From contig NC_135257.1 in the NCBI RefSeq assembly GCF_964204865.1, positions 9,982,001-10,046,000 on the forward strand: DNA of 64,000 bases. Reading direction: 5' to 3'. The position numbers were made by a program. Positions 6,001-15,000 of the stretch are shown here, in pieces. Position 1 is the stretch's first letter. The number at the start of each line of letters is the position of its first letter. Source of the stretch: Styela clava. Taxonomy: Eukaryota.

Positions 6001-9000
6001 CTTTTGCTGTCAACAAAGCTAGGAACAATCGTCCACTTCTAGGTAAAAGCTAATTTAATCTGAATGGTCCGGAATTTTCTCAGATCTGCATTGCCTGCCT
6101 AATTTATTATTCCAATATGGGCGAGCGGTCGGGCATGGGATTTGAAACCCACCTTATAGCCTGCGCTTTCGACGTTAAGTAAAGAAGAGCTTCAATCACT
6201 TCGCAGTCTAATGTTAAGGTGCAATTCGATGAACTCTGATAGTAAAAAACTAGGAAGTTACCCGTTGATATCCCAAAGTCCACGATAGGCAGTACTGATT
6301 GATTCAAATTTTACAAACATGAAATTAGTTGTGGTCAAATAGGAAAGGAATATCATTACATGGGTTTGTCTCTTTAGATTCTGAACTACTTTAAACTTCA
6401 AATAGGATAGAATATTTTACCTAGATATGGCAGTAAAATCACCATTAGACTTATCTCATATAATCCAGGTTTTCTACACGAGTTATGGATAATAAAGTGT
6501 CCTTATGTTTGTTGTTTATCAACACCTTGCCGTTTGATGTGCGTAACACTAGGGGCTAGGAGGGCATAACCACATCGCTTGATCTTAATCAAACAGCGAA
6601 TAATGCTAATCGTTCTTAACAGTCTATTTATTGTAGAAGGCATGTATACGAGAATTTTTGGAGCCGCCGAAGTATGTGCACCAAGATGGCGCACAATCTG
6701 AACATAGTATGTGTACCAGGTTAGGGTTCAGGTTGTACACCATCTTGGTGCACATACTTCTTGAGCGCCGAATTTTTTATCAAAATTATATTTTCTCCGA
6801 GAAGAAGTCGGGTCGAATTTTTTTACAAACCAGAGTCAAGTCAAAATTCTTCTTTAACCCGGAGTCTAAGGTAACTATTTTCCGACCGACTATACTTCCG
6901 ACTAATATGAAATCGATACTGATATTTTTGATTCGTCGTATTAGAATTCTTCTAACCTCGGGTATTTTGAACATATTATCTATTTTTTGCCATTTTTATT
7001 AGAATGAAAGTGAAATTTGACCCGTAAAAGCAGGTTGCGGCCGCGGCTCATTTCCGCCACAAATTCTATTGGATTGGCAGTATTTTTCGGGAAATTCAAA
7101 CGACGAGATCATGTCATTTGCCTTGATTAGGTTGTCTGGATCTCGTCCATACGTTTGGTGTAAATTTTTCCCTCTTTAGGAACATAACGTGAACACGTGG
7201 TAGTTAAGCACAGGAAACAGTGTCAGTGAAATTACGAAAATATGCAGTATATACCCGCACATTCAAAAAGATCTGTAGTGAGTGTCGATATTCGGAGATA
7301 GAACGTTCACTTTTATTTCTGTGAATTTTTATACAGTGATGAGAAGTGATCTAGATGTATAGGAATAAATTACTTCATACTTTCGATAAAAGTTTCATTT
7401 TGTTGTAGTAACCGTGGCAAATAGGTTGAAAAATAGTAACAGAGTCGTATGATGAGCATCGGAAAATGTGTTTTGTTGACAATTTCAATTTTGACATTCT
7501 TTCAACTGAAAATAGCTATTTCAACGCCACCACAAGAAAACTACGATGAATGGGCCATAGAAGTTACAAAGGGGATCGAGAACAAAAAGGAAGTTGTAAA
7601 CACTATAGCGAAGAAACTAGGCCTTGAATTGGTTCGGTCGGTAAGTCATGATCTATAACGCATGTTCTAAACAACCTTTATAAATGGTAAATTTAAAGAT
7701 AATTTTAAATAGTCAGATCATAGTGGCACGTTACCTCTTTTCAAATGGGTAATTCAGGCGACAATTCGTGTCAATATACTCTCCTACCGGCCCCCTTTTT
7801 ACTCAACTGTGTATAAATTCAAGCAAAACATTTCTCACCGATCTAACATTGCTTGAATATTTTGTCTTAAAGTGCGTTTTGAATTTTCTAATATTCATAC
7901 AGCATATTATGTTTTTTAGTTAGTATATATGCTTCATAAAATAGCATGGACAACAAAATTTTAGGCGAAGAAATGAGCCACTTACAAAGTGGCTGAGGAA
8001 TATCTGCAGCTAGTCACATAAATTGTTAAATAATATATATTATCAATACAAACATTTATTTATGATTTCAATCAATTACAAACTATAATGCATATCATCT
8101 GATAATGTTAAAACAGATATCGGATGAGCACATGCCAGAGTTCTTTCATTTACGCGCGGAAAAAGACCTATTAAATCAGGATGCAGTAACTGAGCTTTTA
8201 TTCGATGAACCAGAGGTGAGAAACATTGAATAGTCATGAATCTGCCCAGACTATGTCAACAGTATTGGCAATCACGACAACTAGTGCTATTTATAGAAAC
8301 CTACTCACTCTTATGAACTATACTCAGCATGATCTTCACAAAATCCGTTCACAAAATTACAAAAAATAGCATAGAACTCAAATATTACTAAACTCAATTT
8401 GTGATATATATAGGGTTTATTGTTTGTGAGGATATGCTCGCAGCAAAATTACGCTCGGTCATTTAAGAGAAAAACGAACGAGCGACAACTGAAATGTCAT
8501 CATATATTTTAACAAGTGAAAATAATTTGAAATCAAATTTTCCGTATGCATAGGACGATATTCAGGAAAATATTTTAATATTTTACCTAAAGGCACTATA
8601 TATATATATATTTGTATCCATTTCAGATTGTGTATGCCGAATTTCAAGTTCAACATGAAGTAGAAACTAAAAAGATCGATGATTTGAAAGATTTTCTGAA
8701 CATGAAAAATAAAAAATCGTACTATCATTCCTCAAAATGTCAATGTCACAAAAACTCTCCCGACCAAGATCACGCGTACGTCCAATTTTCACTTGAATTT
8801 ATTCTTTATATAAAATCTTCTTTCTTTTTAATAAAACGTCCGCGGTTAATTAAACCTTTTCAGATGTAAAATATTAGATGTATTATTGAATGTAGTTATA
8901 TAGCGCGCAAATGGGCTATTCTGAATCCTGTGTGAAAAATTCGCCGCAGAAAATTTCGCCGCATAGAAGAATCGCCGTACGAAAAATCGCCGCAAGAGCA

Positions 9001-12000: not shown

Positions 12001-15000
12001 GTTGAAAAACGTTTAAGTACGCACCCACCCTCCAAAATTATATTGCAAGCTCACAAAACAGTGAACCCGATTCAAAATCGGGCAGTACTTTTAAAGCAAT
12101 TCAAAATGAGAAAACACGTAATAATCAAATATAGGAACATCAGGAAATAATAACAAATGAACTATATCACAGTCATTTGACGCATATCAATTAGTTTCCG
12201 GAAAGTGATATGCAAAAAGCACTAGCGCAACAAATACAATAATAGCATTACAATTACAGTGTCAGTCATCGAAATAATGGAATTTGAAATTCAGCGAATA
12301 AGAGCGTTCATAACTTGAATAAACTCAATTGTAAACAAGAAAATCCAGGAAAAGTCATCTGCAATCGCTTTTAAGGCTCGTTTCTCAAAATAAGAACTGA
12401 GCAAATGTTGACGACGCAATCCGACGTTGTCATTTTAAATAAATCCGAAGTTGTCATTTTAAATAGTTTCGAAATTAACCATTCCAAATGCATCCGAAGT
12501 TACAGTACCAAATGGGTCCGAAGTTAACGTTCAACATGATCCGAAGTTACCATTCCAAATGTGCCCCAAGTTATCGTTCAAAATGATCCGCATCCCGCAT
12601 AGTGTATGTATAGTATACTATACTAGACAAAGTAGGCCGAATTGTTAACTAACCCATACCTAAACAAACAGCGAATATTGCGAAAGAATTTTCTAGAACA
12701 CAAACTAATGTCCATGAATAAATCGGTGAACAATTCTTACATATGCAGTTAATGGTTCTTCAACTTTAGATTAGATTTATGCTATGGCCGCTTCTATTTA
12801 TGTTTCAGGAATTCATGGGGCCCGTCGGACAATGGGCACTTGTTCCGCAAACCACCAAGGCTTACAGCTACATCTCTGCAGCGTGGAGCAGAACACGTAA
12901 AATATTTCGTTTATATAATGATACTGTGGTTGAAAAAACACTTCAAGTTTGGATTGAAATTCCATTTAAGTTGTGAATTGATACTTTGTGTGGATGTATT
13001 ATACTGGCAACAATCTTACAGTGTGATTCAATCAAATTCAGAAACTATGTCTCTGGATTTCCGTCTGATAAATATCAGATGCCGTAGTAAATGGTTTTGA
13101 ATAGTCTAAAACTTTTTGTGCAATATTTTTTTCAGGGGAGAAATGGAAAAGGAAATATTTATTTATTTGCTTCCGGCAACGGTGGATTAAGAAACGATCA
13201 TTGTGGGGCTGATGGCTTTTCTTGCAATATTTATACAATTTCTATCGGTAAGTTATGATTTATTGCTTGAACGAGACAAAATGACGCCCGCACCTGGCCA
13301 TTTTTTCATTATTAACGATCGGTCTATGAATCCATGCTGCGATGAATTGGTATCTAATACTCTCAGTATACATCATCAGAGAGATTTCTCCCTCTGATTT
13401 ACATTTTATATAAGCTGTCCTAAAAGTGAGGGATTTATTTTCAAAACTGCGATATAAAACGTTTTTTTCCACCTCATTGAAACTAAGTATAATATTTAAA
13501 TTCGAAACGACTTTAATTTTGCCCACAACCGAATGCGAAGCGAAAGTAAATAAACCCTATAATATATCATTATTCCAAAATGAAAATAATACACCCCGAA
13601 AACGTAATATAACTTTTAAATTTTCACTAATATTATTAAGGAGATTTCGACAACACCATTTGGGATTTTTCAAGACAAATAAAATCATTTTTCATCATCT
13701 TAGTGTTTTGTATATTTTTCAGCCTCTAGCTCCCGGAATGGTTTGAATGCTATTTATAGTGAACAATGCACATGTATTATGGCAACACTTCCTTCTACTG
13801 ACACACACTCCAATCCATTTGATTATGATATGATGGTATGATGGGATTTATATACAACGATTCTTATTTTTTGTAACTTGATGCCCAATAACTCTTTGGC
13901 ACCAACTTATAGATCAGTTCAAACTGCATAATACTTTGATTAGATATTTTAATATAGTATGCTGCTTGGCAAATCGGAACCAGAAATTTATTTGCAAAAT
14001 AGAGCCCTACTTTCTCAATGACGTTGCCATTGATCGTAATTTAGTCAAAGTCCTGATTTGTATCCAAACAAAGATCGATTTGCTCTATCATCGGCATGCA
14101 ATCTTGCAGAGACAAAAACAGTATGCATTAACTGCGCCTGCGTAGCCAAAGCACTGCATTAAGATCTAACTTTGCAACTAGATTTCCAAAACGGTCTGAA
14201 GCCGTTAATATTTTTTTTCTTAGTTTGTTATCCACTAATTGAATCAAGCTCGCTTATAGATTACGACGAGTCTGCACAACGGGTGTGTAAATAACTTCCG
14301 AGGCACTTCTTCTGTCACTCCTCTTGCTTCATCAGTTGCTACAATGGTACTTCAGGCGAAGTAAGTGGAAGAAATGTGTGTGCATGCATCTGACGAAATG
14401 TCGTTAATTTGTCTTTCATCTTATGTTTCATTCACAGCCCTGCCTTGACATGGAGAGATGTTCAGCATTTGATAGCTCACACTGCATTAGTTGTTGATCC
14501 TAACAATGACAACTGGCAAATTAATGGAGCCGGCTTTCATGTCCATACCTAGTGAGTATTTTTTATTTTTGTTGTTCCCGAATTGACCACGGAGAACTTT
14601 CCGCTAGCACCACAGTCAAGGAAGTAAAAACATAATGGTAGACATTCCCACAATGTTGTATTGTTATTTGCTTTAGTTACGGATTTGGTGCGCTGAATGC
14701 CCTTCACATAACAACAGCCGCCGAAACATGGATCAATGTCGACAGACAGAGGTTGTGCAAACTTCAACATCCGAAATCTCACAGGTAGTCTAATCCAAAA
14801 AAATTCAGCTAAGCTTAGATCAAACAAGTACTTATTCAGAAAATTTTTTAATACTCTTGCCCTCATATATAGCAACCAAAATTGACTTTATGCTTTATAG
14901 TAATCCAAATTAGATTTGAAAAAAGAAAACAACACAACTATATTTATGCAACGCAACATACGACGTCATGTCATTGATGAGATTTCAATTATCAAATTTT

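What the first reader, a model, noticed from the sequence alone, without database searches (positions are those of the whole stretch)
8627..13247. Convertase with apparently charge-reversed S4-S6 pockets and a matching acidic pro-domain junction
Seen: where furin-type pro-domains end EQQVAKRRTKR, this protein reads EFQVQHEVETKK, with no R-X-K/R-R. By manual alignment to furin (numbering from memory), the S1/S2 acids are kept (DDG, D-K-P-H, WGPSD, GADG, YSE). Distal residues differ: DDGKTVDGP becomes DNGHLFRKP (D264 to R), DGEVTD becomes GHKSTD (E230 to K), E257 becomes S and Y308 becomes F. Inference: cleavage after TKK would put Glu at P4 and P6, opposite the new basic residues. This suggests enzyme and pro-peptide co-evolved toward an E-X-E-X-K-K-like specificity, unlike known multibasic convertases.
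Basis: partly seen in the sequence, partly recalled or inferred. Interest (0 to 1): 0.75.

Follow-up and report, generated by a model that had tools for sequence, protein, structure and literature searches.

The report
Divergent convertase with basic distal pockets
An intact gene for a furin-like protein-cutting enzyme has replaced several acidic residues that normally read basic cleavage signals with basic ones, and its own pro-piece ends in an acid-rich Lys-Lys motif, which hints at an unusual, still untested cutting preference.

Summary
Window 7449-16538 (+) carries an 18-exon kexin-like proprotein convertase gene. All introns are GT-AG, phases are consistent, and it encodes 655 codons before the stop. 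The finding's coordinates run exactly from the start of exon 3 to the end of exon 10.

Exon-by-exon alignment to solved furin and kexin and a published furin pocket table give this map:
- Kept: catalytic Asp, His and Ser, the oxyanion Asn, and the S1/S2 acids (D154, D191, D258, D306, E331).
- Changed: D228G, G229H, E230K, E257S, D264R, G265K, Y308F.
- D233 and E236 stay acidic.

No R-X-K/R-R exists at or near the pro-domain end. Every phase-compatible splice choice except an implausible 5-base exon keeps E-V-E-T-K-K coding.

Cleavage after K-K and a preference for acidic residues at P4/P6 are inferences. Lys at P1 fits an unchanged S1 pocket poorly. R264 may simply neutralise E236.

The joined-exon fold and search were left out by rule.

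Exons 11-18 lie in an 8.2-8.4 kb unit that is tandemly triplicated.

The parts
7449..7640 (+). Exon 1: start codon, signal peptide, N-terminal part of the S8 pro-domain. Also holds an E-N-K-K motif.
   Evidence: Pfam S8_pro-domain matches profile positions 1-30 of 79, E=0.05, 14.7 bits, below the 25.5 cut-off. On the trimmed exon E=0.2. Dibasic list.
8117..8215 (+). Exon 2: middle of the pro-domain.
   Evidence: AG/GT sites and phase 0. No Pfam hit on its own.
8627..8775 (+). Exon 3: end of the pro-domain and start of an extra linker.
   Evidence: No PDB, Pfam or Atlas match on its own.
8657..8674 (+). E-V-E-T-K-K, the proposed pro-domain junction (P6-P1 if cut after the second Lys). It is followed by I-D-D.
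   Evidence: Sequence. It is 1 of 7 dibasic pairs in the protein and the only one with acids at both P4 and P6. The cleavage itself is inferred.
8705..8716 (+). K-N-K-K, an alternative basic site 14 residues further on.
   Evidence: Lys at P4 is not accepted by furin (PMC12405487 passage).
9609..9708 (+). Exon 4: rest of the linker and start of the catalytic domain (ends Q-W-Q-L).
   Evidence: PDB search gave only one chance hit, E=1.2.
10173..10319 (+). Exon 5: catalytic Asp (D153) and the S2 acid D154.
   Evidence: Furin E=1.2e-08, 20 of 42 identities. Peptidase_S8 21.1 bits.
10809..10879 (+). Exon 6: loop before the catalytic His. D191 is kept, and residue 192 is Lys (10875-10877).
   Evidence: Placed by adjacency to H194.
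10980..11068 (+). Exon 7: catalytic His (H194).
   Evidence: Furin E=3.7e-09, 20 of 30 identities. Peptidase_S8 24.0 bits, above the 21.8 cut-off.
11379..11463 (+). Exon 8: S4-S6 wall, furin 224-250. It holds G228, H229, K230 (11399-11401), S231, T232, D233, R235, E236.
   Evidence: Ungapped against furin letters printed: 10 of 24 identities. On its own it gave 0 PDB hits.
12809..12896 (+). Exon 9: S-W-G-P then S257, D258, R264 (12846-12848), K265 (12849-12851), P266, P267.
   Evidence: Anchors and spacing against Table 1 of PMC2820236 and N295. On its own it gave 0 PDB hits.
13136..13247 (+). Exon 10: oxyanion N295, D301, D306, F308 (13217-13219).
   Evidence: Kexin E=1.2e-10 and furin E=2.6e-09, both ungapped.
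13723..13835 (+). Exon 11: Y329, E331 (Y-S-E).
   Evidence: Placed by ungapped continuation from exon 10. On its own it gave 0 PDB hits.
14260..14360 (+). Exon 12: catalytic Ser (S368, 14308-14310), F364, R365 (14299-14301).
   Evidence: Peptidase_S8 E=0.00099. Kexin E=0.099 and furin E=0.33, query 1-33 to chain 245-277.
14438..14784 (+). Exons 13 (14438-14551) and 14 (14677-14784): end of the catalytic domain.
   Evidence: No Pfam hit on their own.
15291..16538 (+). Exons 15 (15291-15384), 16 (15462-15539, with R-G-D), 17 (16070-16174) and 18 (16416-16538, stop): P domain and a short C-terminus.
   Evidence: P_proprotein 33.9 bits, above the 21 cut-off, for exon 17, and 15.9 bits for exon 16. 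Boundaries.
21930..24993 (+). Second copy of exons 11-18 (repeat unit 2).
   Evidence: 6 of 836 exonic bases differ, 3 amino-acid changes, all splice sites kept, no stops.
30326..33132 (+). Third copy of exons 11-18 (repeat unit 3).
   Evidence: 9 of 836 exonic bases differ, 3 amino-acid changes, all splice sites kept, no stops.

Best explanation
The region encodes an intact, secreted, kexin-like proprotein convertase of about 655 residues. Its parts are a signal peptide, an S8 pro-domain, an extra linker of about 55 residues, a catalytic domain and a P domain, with no Cys-rich or membrane segment.

Shown:
- The catalytic machinery and the S1 pocket are those of furin and kexin.
- S2 keeps its two acids but gains Lys at 192.
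- The distal wall that reads P4-P6 has lost four of six acids (D228G, E230K, E257S, D264R). It has gained K230, R235, R264, K265 and H229. T365R adds a base on the prime side.
- The pro-domain tail has no R-X-K/R-R and reads E-V-E-T-K-K followed by I-D-D.

Inferred:
- The enzyme still cuts after a basic P1, probably a dibasic pair.
- It no longer needs basic residues at P4/P6 and probably disfavours them.
- It matures by cutting its own pro-domain after K-K, where the Glu residues at P4 and P6 and the Asp residues at P2' and P3' face the new basic residues.
- The long linker would also let the Asp that completes calcium site I reach its place without the tight coupling to autocleavage described for furin and PC1/3.
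For: - Gene model: 18 exons, all AG/GT, consistent phases, one terminal stop.
- Best solved relatives are furin and kexin for exons 5, 7, 10 and 12.
- Pfam Peptidase_S8 and P_proprotein match per exon.
- Pocket roles: P4 contacts E236, D264 and Y308. P5/P6 contact E230 and E257. H364 and T365 are in the P1'/P2' lists (PMC2820236 passages and tables).
- No basic residue sits at these sites in the seven mammalian convertases.
- The pro-domain tail of PC1/3 lies in the cleft like a substrate (PMC12405487 passages).
- 1 of 7 dibasic pairs has acids at both P4 and P6, against a D+E share of 0.114.
- All usable donors keep the motif coding, and there is no hidden multibasic exon.
- Divergence is concentrated where the pockets are. 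Exons 8 and 9 found no solved relative, while exons 5, 7 and 10 did (against 8, 22, 15).
- Calcium site I and D115: PMC13419460 passages.
- A precedent for basic subsites paired with acidic substrate residues, including the autocleavage site, is Plasmodium SUB1 (PMC3378952 passages).
Against: - Lys rather than Arg is at the proposed P1, although the S1 pocket is unchanged.
- E236 and D233 are kept, so the new Arg and Lys may pair with them.
- The register of the tail is uncertain by one residue.
- Pro-domain exons 2 and 3 match no profile or structure on their own, so the 'last strand' assignment of V-Y-A-E-F-Q rests on length and on a recalled motif.
- The Asp taken as the D115 equivalent is placed by spacing only. 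Exon 4 found no convertase.
- There is one sequence only, with no transcript evidence and no orthologues.
- Exon 11 (Y-S-E) also found no solved relative, so the lack of a solved relative is not confined to the two pocket exons.
Confidence: 0.45

Rival explanations
1. The pockets are neutralised, not reversed. R264 pairs with the retained E236 and K230 with the retained D233, filling or flattening S4 and S6. The enzyme is then a plain dibasic (K/R-K/R) convertase without P4/P6 selectivity, as is partly true of kexin, PC1/3 and PC2. On this reading the Glu residues in the tail are incidental.
For: - E236 and D233 are kept.
- E236 and D264 both touch the same P4 guanidinium in furin, so the two positions are close together.
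- Loss of charge at 230 and 257 already occurs in PC1/3 and PC2.
Against: - Four bases were gained (K230, R235, R264, K265), against only two acids left to pair with.
- Acids occur at P6, P4, P2' and P3' of the proposed junction.
Confidence: 0.3
2. This is a relaxed or non-processing paralogue: one of the lineage-specific long-branch kexin-like duplicates, drifting at substrate-contact sites. The pro-domain is not removed, or the protein is a weak or inactive enzyme. The long linker lets it fold and complete calcium site I without autocleavage.
For: - Residues that the seven mammalian enzymes hardly vary are changed here: N192K, D264R, G265K, H364F, T365R.
- Duplicated long-branch kexin-like genes are reported in several invertebrate genomes (bioRxiv 10.1101/802215, sections 5 and 7).
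- Lys sits at P1.
- There is no expression evidence.
Against: - All 18 exons are intact with canonical splice sites.
- The triad, the oxyanion Asn, the S1 acids, D301/E331 and the aligned Cys residues are kept.
- In the repeat copies the exons differ 3-4 times less than the units as a whole: 0.7-1.1% against about 2-5%.
Confidence: 0.2
3. Maturation happens elsewhere, at K-N-K-K (8705-8716) or after M-R-Y-R in exon 4. It is done either by the enzyme itself or in trans by a canonical convertase.
For: - Both sites exist in the model.
- M-R-Y-R offers Arg at P1.
- K-N-K-K looks multibasic.
Against: - K-N-K-K lies 14 residues beyond the length expected for a pro-domain tail.
- Lys at P4 is not accepted by furin and would face R264/K265 here.
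- M-R-Y-R ends 2 residues before the Asp placed as the D115 equivalent, which is too close to the folded core for an intramolecular cut (inference).
Confidence: 0.15
4. Gene-model artefact: the E-T-K-K stretch is intronic or mis-spliced, and the real transcript carries a canonical junction.
For: No transcript data. Exon 3 matches nothing on its own.
Against: - All 5 acceptors usable for exon 4 need two carried bases.
- The donors that supply them (8719, 8776, 8845, 8866, and an absurd 5-base exon at 8632) all lie downstream of the motif apart from that last one.
- The acceptor at 8627 has a clean pyrimidine tract.
- No alternative exon with R-X-K/R-R exists in 8216-10172.
Confidence: 0.05

Closest known systems
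Furin (PCSK3; solved structures 4OMC, 1P8J and others)
   Same: - It is the best or near-best solved relative of exons 5, 7, 10 and 12.
- The catalytic D, H and S, N295, D154, D191, D258, D301, D306 and E331, and the S-W-G-P backbone-binding strand are the same.
- Both have a P domain with R-G-D.
   Different: - Substitutions: D228G, G229H, E230K, V235R, E257S, D264R, G265K, Y308F, N192K, R193P, H364F, T365R.
- No R-X-K/R-R at the pro-domain end.
- About 55 extra residues between the pro-domain and the catalytic domain.
- No Cys-rich or membrane region.
Kexin (Kex2; 1OT5, 1R64, 2ID4)
   Same: - It is the top solved hit for exons 10 and 12.
- It is a dibasic-type enzyme in which P4 matters less (recalled).
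   Different: Kexin's own pro-domain ends in a basic pair with Arg at P1 (recalled). Basic residues at the 230 and 264 equivalents of kexin were not seen by me, because exon 9 gave no alignment.
PC1/3 and PC2
   Same: Natural loss of the negative charges at 230 and 257 (Table 2 of PMC2820236). Both are soluble enzymes without a membrane anchor.
   Different: - They replace these acids with neutral residues, not bases.
- They keep an acid at 264 (D or E).
- PC1/3 keeps R-S-K-R as its primary motif (PMC13419460 passage). I saw no tool evidence for the primary motif of PC2.
PC4 and PC7
   Same: Their pro-domains lack a canonical secondary cleavage site (PMC12405487 passage), as seems true here.
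   Different: They are described as conventional basic-specific convertases. Their pocket changes are E230 to A/T or P, with D264 kept.
Plasmodium SUB1 (an S8A subtilase, not a kexin-like enzyme)
   Same: It works alike in principle. A basic subsite surface is matched to acidic substrate residues, including its own autocleavage site, with evidence of protease-substrate co-evolution (PMC3378952 passages).
   Different: The basic surface is on the prime side. It belongs to a different subfamily, has no P domain and has a non-basic P1.
S1P/SKI-1 and PCSK9 (convertases with non-basic motifs)
   Same: They are secretory-pathway subtilases whose autocleavage site is not multibasic.
   Different: They are not kexin-like and have no P domain. 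Neither appeared among the solved hits.
Lineage-specific long-branch kexin-like duplicates and the PCSKX group of invertebrates (bioRxiv 10.1101/802215)
   Same: The same kind of gene: PF00082 plus PF01483, in an invertebrate-type genome, and divergent.
   Different: In the sections I read (5 and 7, plus passages), that paper gives no analysis of subsite residues or pro-domain junctions. Orthology of this gene to any group could not be tested.

Membership tests
Kexin-like proprotein convertase (S8B; defined in 10.1101/802215 as PF00082 plus PF01483) | Peptidase_S8 catalytic domain with the Asp-His-Ser triad and the oxyanion Asn | tested here: met
   PF00082 on exons 5, 7 and 12: 21.1, 24.0 and 18.9 bits against a cut-off of 21.8, searched exon by exon. 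D153, H194, N295 and S368 align to furin and kexin.
Kexin-like proprotein convertase | P domain (PF01483) after the catalytic domain | tested here: met
   Exon 17: 33.9 bits, E=3.3e-08, cut-off 21. Exon 16: 15.9 bits.
Kexin-like proprotein convertase | N-terminal S8 pro-domain (PF16470) | tested here: inconclusive
   Exon 1 matches profile positions 1-30 of 79 at 14.7 bits, E=0.05, below the 25.5 cut-off. Exons 2 and 3 gave no hit. No PDB hit for exon 3. The joined pro-domain was not searched, by rule.
Kexin-like proprotein convertase | Multibasic (R-X-K/R-R) primary autocleavage motif at the pro-domain end | tested here: not met
   The tail reads E-V-E-T-K-K. None of the 7 [RK]-x-[RK]-R hits in 8216-10172 lies in a plausible exon.
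Kexin-like proprotein convertase | Acidic S1 and S2 pockets (D258, D306; D154, D191) | tested here: met
   All four are kept (with Table 1 of PMC2820236). Residue 192 is Lys instead of Asn.
Furin-type extended specificity (basic P4/P6) | Acidic S4 (E236 and D264, with Y308) and acidic S5/S6 (E230, E257, D233) | tested here: not met
   R264, K265, K230, S257 and F308. Only E236 and D233 are kept.
A named orthologous group (furin1, furin2/PCSK5-6, PCSK1, PCSK2, PCSK7, PCSKX) | Placement in a phylogeny of kexin-like proteins | not testable with these tools
S1P-like or proteinase-K-like convertases (PCSK8, PCSK9) | S8 domain without a P domain, and the family-specific catalytic-domain signatures | tested here: not met
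   A P domain is present. The solved relatives are furin and kexin, and neither S1P nor PCSK9 was listed.

The most novel reading that the evidence does not exclude
This is a natural kexin-family convertase whose extended specificity has been inverted. It keeps a basic P1/P2 but selects acidic residues at P4/P6 and at P2'/P3', through K230, R264, K265 and R365. It has co-evolved with its own pro-domain junction, E-V-E-T-K-K then I-D-D. A linker of about 55 residues uncouples completion of calcium site I from autocleavage.
Probability: 0.2. Interest if true: 0.75.

Novelty: new variant of a known kind. Interest (0 to 1): 0.5.

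Why it matters
All characterised kexin-like convertases read basic residues with acidic pockets. Differences among them are limited to losing some distal charge.

An enzyme of this fold with basic distal pockets would show how far convertase specificity can move in nature. It would mark a class of precursor cleavage sites (acid-x-acid-x-Lys-Lys) that current motif searches ignore. It would also give a natural test of how far pro-domain and pocket evolve together.

If it is only a drifting paralogue, it is one more long-branch duplicate of the kind already reported in invertebrate genomes.

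Tried and rejected
I went exon by exon instead.
- Exon 8, exon 9 (tried twice, as a long and a trimmed stretch), exon 11, exon 3 and exon 4 found no convertase in the PDB at E up to 10. Their placement therefore rests on neighbouring exons, printed furin letters, published residue numbers and equal spacing.
- Pfam on trimmed exons added nothing: 1 of 9 gave the weak pro-domain hit and 1 of 9 gave a chance HEAT hit.
- The Atlas search with exon 3 gave no usable hit.
- Fetching a PDB sequence by its u-number failed. No furin sequence could therefore be used in scripts or in protein comparison.
- My first exon coordinates for exons 12-17 were off by 1-2 bases, and the counts are void. replace them.
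- A hidden canonical junction exon was looked for and rejected. So were alternative donors and acceptors.
- Literature on Lys against Arg at P1: one search (11 papers, one listed) gave nothing usable from the listing, so that point is recalled knowledge.
- Searches for earlier descriptions of a convertase with basic S4/S6 or a non-basic kexin-like junction found none in the listings. The one relevant paper (10.1101/802215) does not treat it in the parts I read.

Not done:
- The genome-contig scan was not used, because it holds only bacteria and archaea.
- Supplements were closed. Table S1 of 10.1101/802215 may list comparable genes.
- Phases were checked by arithmetic and each exon was translated apart.
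- I do not take the window for human. It has 29-40% G+C and holds a divergent convertase, a PLP-enzyme gene and an intronless MFS gene.

Full report
What is there. The window has no N and 29-40% G+C. Between 7449 and 16538 on the + strand I built an 18-exon model from stop-free segments and the DNA at each boundary. Every intron is AG/GT. The carried-over codon phases agree from exon to exon. The only stop is the last codon. The model is 1968 coding bases, 655 codons plus stop. Each exon was translated apart and phases were checked by arithmetic. The finding's bounds, 8627 and 13247, are exactly the start of exon 3 and the end of exon 10.

Family. Searched exon by exon, the best solved relatives are furin and kexin:
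- exon 5: furin E=1.2e-08, 17 sequences at E up to 0.01;
- exon 7: furin E=3.7e-09, 22 sequences at E up to 10;
- exon 10: kexin E=1.2e-10 and furin E=2.6e-09, 11 sequences;
- exon 12: kexin E=0.099 and furin E=0.33, 12 sequences, a weak match.
Pfam gives Peptidase_S8 on exons 5, 7 and 12, P_proprotein on exons 16 and 17 (33.9 bits for exon 17), and a sub-threshold S8_pro-domain hit on exon 1. By the definition used in bioRxiv 10.1101/802215 (section 5), PF00082 plus PF01483, this is a kexin-like convertase. The protein has a plausible signal peptide by eye, a pro-domain, a catalytic domain and a P domain with R-G-D. It ends soon after the P domain.

Checking the observation. The numbering was anchored with tool output:
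- In 4omc_A, chain index plus 107 is the furin number. This puts the D-D-G pair at 153 and 154.
- Exon 7 aligns to 193-236, and the furin letters for that stretch are printed. Letters for 214-247 are printed.
- Exon 8, laid on them without gaps, shares 10 of 24 residues and reads I227, G228, H229, K230, S231, T232, D233, V234, R235, E236.
- Exon 10 aligns without gaps (query 9-53 to chain 167-211). This gives A292, S293, G294, N295, D301, D306 and F308.
- Exon 9 found nothing on its own. However, Table 1 of PMC2820236 names S253, W254, G255, P256, E257, D258, D264, G265, P266 and A267. The window's S-W-G-P, Asp and Pro anchors have the same spacing as furin: 12 residues from W254 to P266 and 41 from W254 to N295. 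This gives S257, D258, R264, K265, P266 and P267.
- Exon 11 continues without gaps to Y329 and E331.
- Exon 12 (query i + 351) gives F364, R365, G366, T367, S368.
- Exon 6 ends D191, K192 and a split Pro codon before H194.
I add D228G, G229H, V235R, G265K, N192K, R193P, H364F and T365R.

How unusual it is. PMC2820236 (abstract, passages, Tables 1 and 2) states that P4 Arg contacts E236, D264 and Y308, and that P5/P6 basic residues use E230 and E257. Among the seven mammalian convertases, E230 and E257 vary only to neutral residues or Asp, and D264 varies only to Glu. No basic residue is listed at 228, 230, 233, 236, 257, 264 or 265. Here the six distal acids fall to two, and four bases plus a His appear in the same wall.

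The junction. Exon 3 starts I-V-Y-A-E-F-Q-V-Q-H-E-V-E-T-K-K and continues I-D-D-L-K-D... up to K-N-K-K and beyond. Exon 4 carries the rest of a linker and ends Q-W-Q-L.
- All 5 acceptors usable for exon 4 need two carried bases. The donors that supply them are 8719, 8776 (the best, 5 of 6 to consensus), 8845, 8866 and an absurd 5-base exon at 8632. Apart from that last one, every workable model keeps E-T-K-K coding.
- A scan of 8216-10172 in three frames found 7 [RK]-x-[RK]-R strings. Five are in intron 3 in or beside the minisatellite, one is in intron 2 upstream of exon 3, and one is out of frame inside exon 3.
- From the first residue matched by the 79-position pro-domain profile to the second Lys is about 80 residues. 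This fits E-T-K-K as the positional equivalent of the primary site.
- In the PC1/3 pro-domain bound to furin, the tail lies in the cleft like a substrate, with P1 R110, P2 K109 and P4 R107. The P6 backbone binds V231, and Gln102 lies 8 residues before P1 (PMC12405487 passages). Here the two Gln residues lie 9 and 7 before the last Lys, so the register is uncertain by one.
- Of the 7 dibasic pairs in the protein, only this one has acids at both P4 and P6. The D+E share is 0.114. A second pair in exon 1, E-N-K-K, has Glu at P4.

Mechanism.
- Shown: an apparently intact enzyme with furin-type catalytic residues, S1 pocket and calcium ligands (D301, E331); a remodelled, net-basic distal wall; a base at 365 on the prime side; and an acid-rich Lys-Lys junction.
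- Inferred: cutting after a basic P1, no requirement for basic P4/P6 and probable repulsion of them, and self-cleavage after K-K with E(P4), E(P6), D(P2') and D(P3') facing K230, R264, K265 and R365.
- Further inference: PMC13419460 (passages) reports that furin D115 can complete calcium site I only after autocleavage. Here about 55 extra residues separate the junction from the Asp that I place as its equivalent. That placement is by spacing to Q-W-x-L only, because exon 4 matched no convertase. The coupling would therefore be looser.

- Lys at P1 faces an unchanged, Arg-type S1 pocket (recalled preference).
- E236 and D233 could absorb R264 and K230.
- Pro-domain exons 2 and 3 have no independent match.
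- There are no transcripts and no orthologues.
- The gene may be one of the fast-evolving lineage-specific duplicates described in 10.1101/802215.
Against mere decay, the model is intact. In the repeat copies the exons differ by 6 of 836 and 9 of 836 bases, while the units as a whole are 95.3-97.9% identical.

Surroundings.
- From 13507, inside intron 10, an 8.2-8.4 kb unit is repeated three times head to tail (13507-21713, 21714-30102, 30103-38290). Each unit carries exons 11-18 and, on the minus strand, pieces of a PLP-dependent enzyme gene.
- The 5' half of the gene (exons 1-10) occurs once in the window.
- Whether this is a real duplication or stacked haplotypes cannot be told here.
- It does not touch the residues at issue except Y329, E331 and the Ser exon, which are identical in the three copies.

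Comparison and novelty. The gene works like, and is a member of, the kexin-like convertases. It fails two features of the furin type: the multibasic junction and the acidic S4/S6. Precedents exist for loss of distal charge (PC1/3, PC2), for pro-domains without a canonical secondary site (PC4, PC7), and, outside the family, for basic subsites matched to acidic substrate residues (Plasmodium SUB1). I found no description of a kexin-like enzyme with basic residues at 230, 264 and 265 in two literature searches (listings, plus the papers read as stated). I rate it a new variant of a known kind, with interest 0.5, pending transcripts, orthologues and a structure.

Noticed in passing
window 13507-38290: Tandem triplication of an 8.2-8.4 kb unit (13507-21713, 21714-30102, 30103-38290) at 95.3-97.9% identity. 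It starts inside intron 10 of the convertase gene. Each unit holds exons 11-18, with intact splice sites and 0.7-1.1% exonic difference. It could be a recent duplication, alternative 3' cassettes, or stacked haplotypes in the assembly.
   Followed up: partly
window 19350-20470 (-), repeated at about 28570-28860 and 35945-37054: Minus-strand exons of a pyridoxal-phosphate-dependent enzyme (Pfam PALP, E=0.00074 on one exon) lie inside each repeat unit.
   Followed up: partly
window 17746-18099 (+), also 26185-26538 and 34340-34693: A 118-residue stop-free stretch is kept almost unchanged in all three units. It has no credible Pfam match (two sub-threshold chance hits at E about 0.04, none at E up to 0.01).
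   Followed up: partly
window 8934-9176 (intron 3) and 12418-12590 (intron 8): Minisatellites with periods of 15 and 52 bases, and of 24 and 47 bases. The first produces the overlapping minus-strand ORFs listed at 8846-9254.
   Followed up: partly
window 56393-58575 (+): Exons with a CHY zinc finger (E=1e-12) and zinc_ribbon_6 (E=4.6e-27), the domain set of an RCHY1/Pirh2-type ubiquitin ligase.
   Followed up: partly
window 60847-62286 (+): A 480-residue uninterrupted reading frame of a major facilitator superfamily transporter (MFS_1, E=4.1e-29).
   Followed up: partly
window 50853-52841 (-): Three stop-free stretches share a Leu-rich motif followed by F-F-D-T-F, so they look like copies of one repeated element or gene family. 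The one copy scanned (51211-51624) has no Pfam match.
   Followed up: no
window 7584-7595 (exon 1): A second dibasic pair with Glu at P4 (E-N-K-K) lies in the N-terminal part of the pro-domain. If the enzyme does prefer acid-x-Lys-Lys, this could be an internal pro-domain cut site.
   Followed up: no
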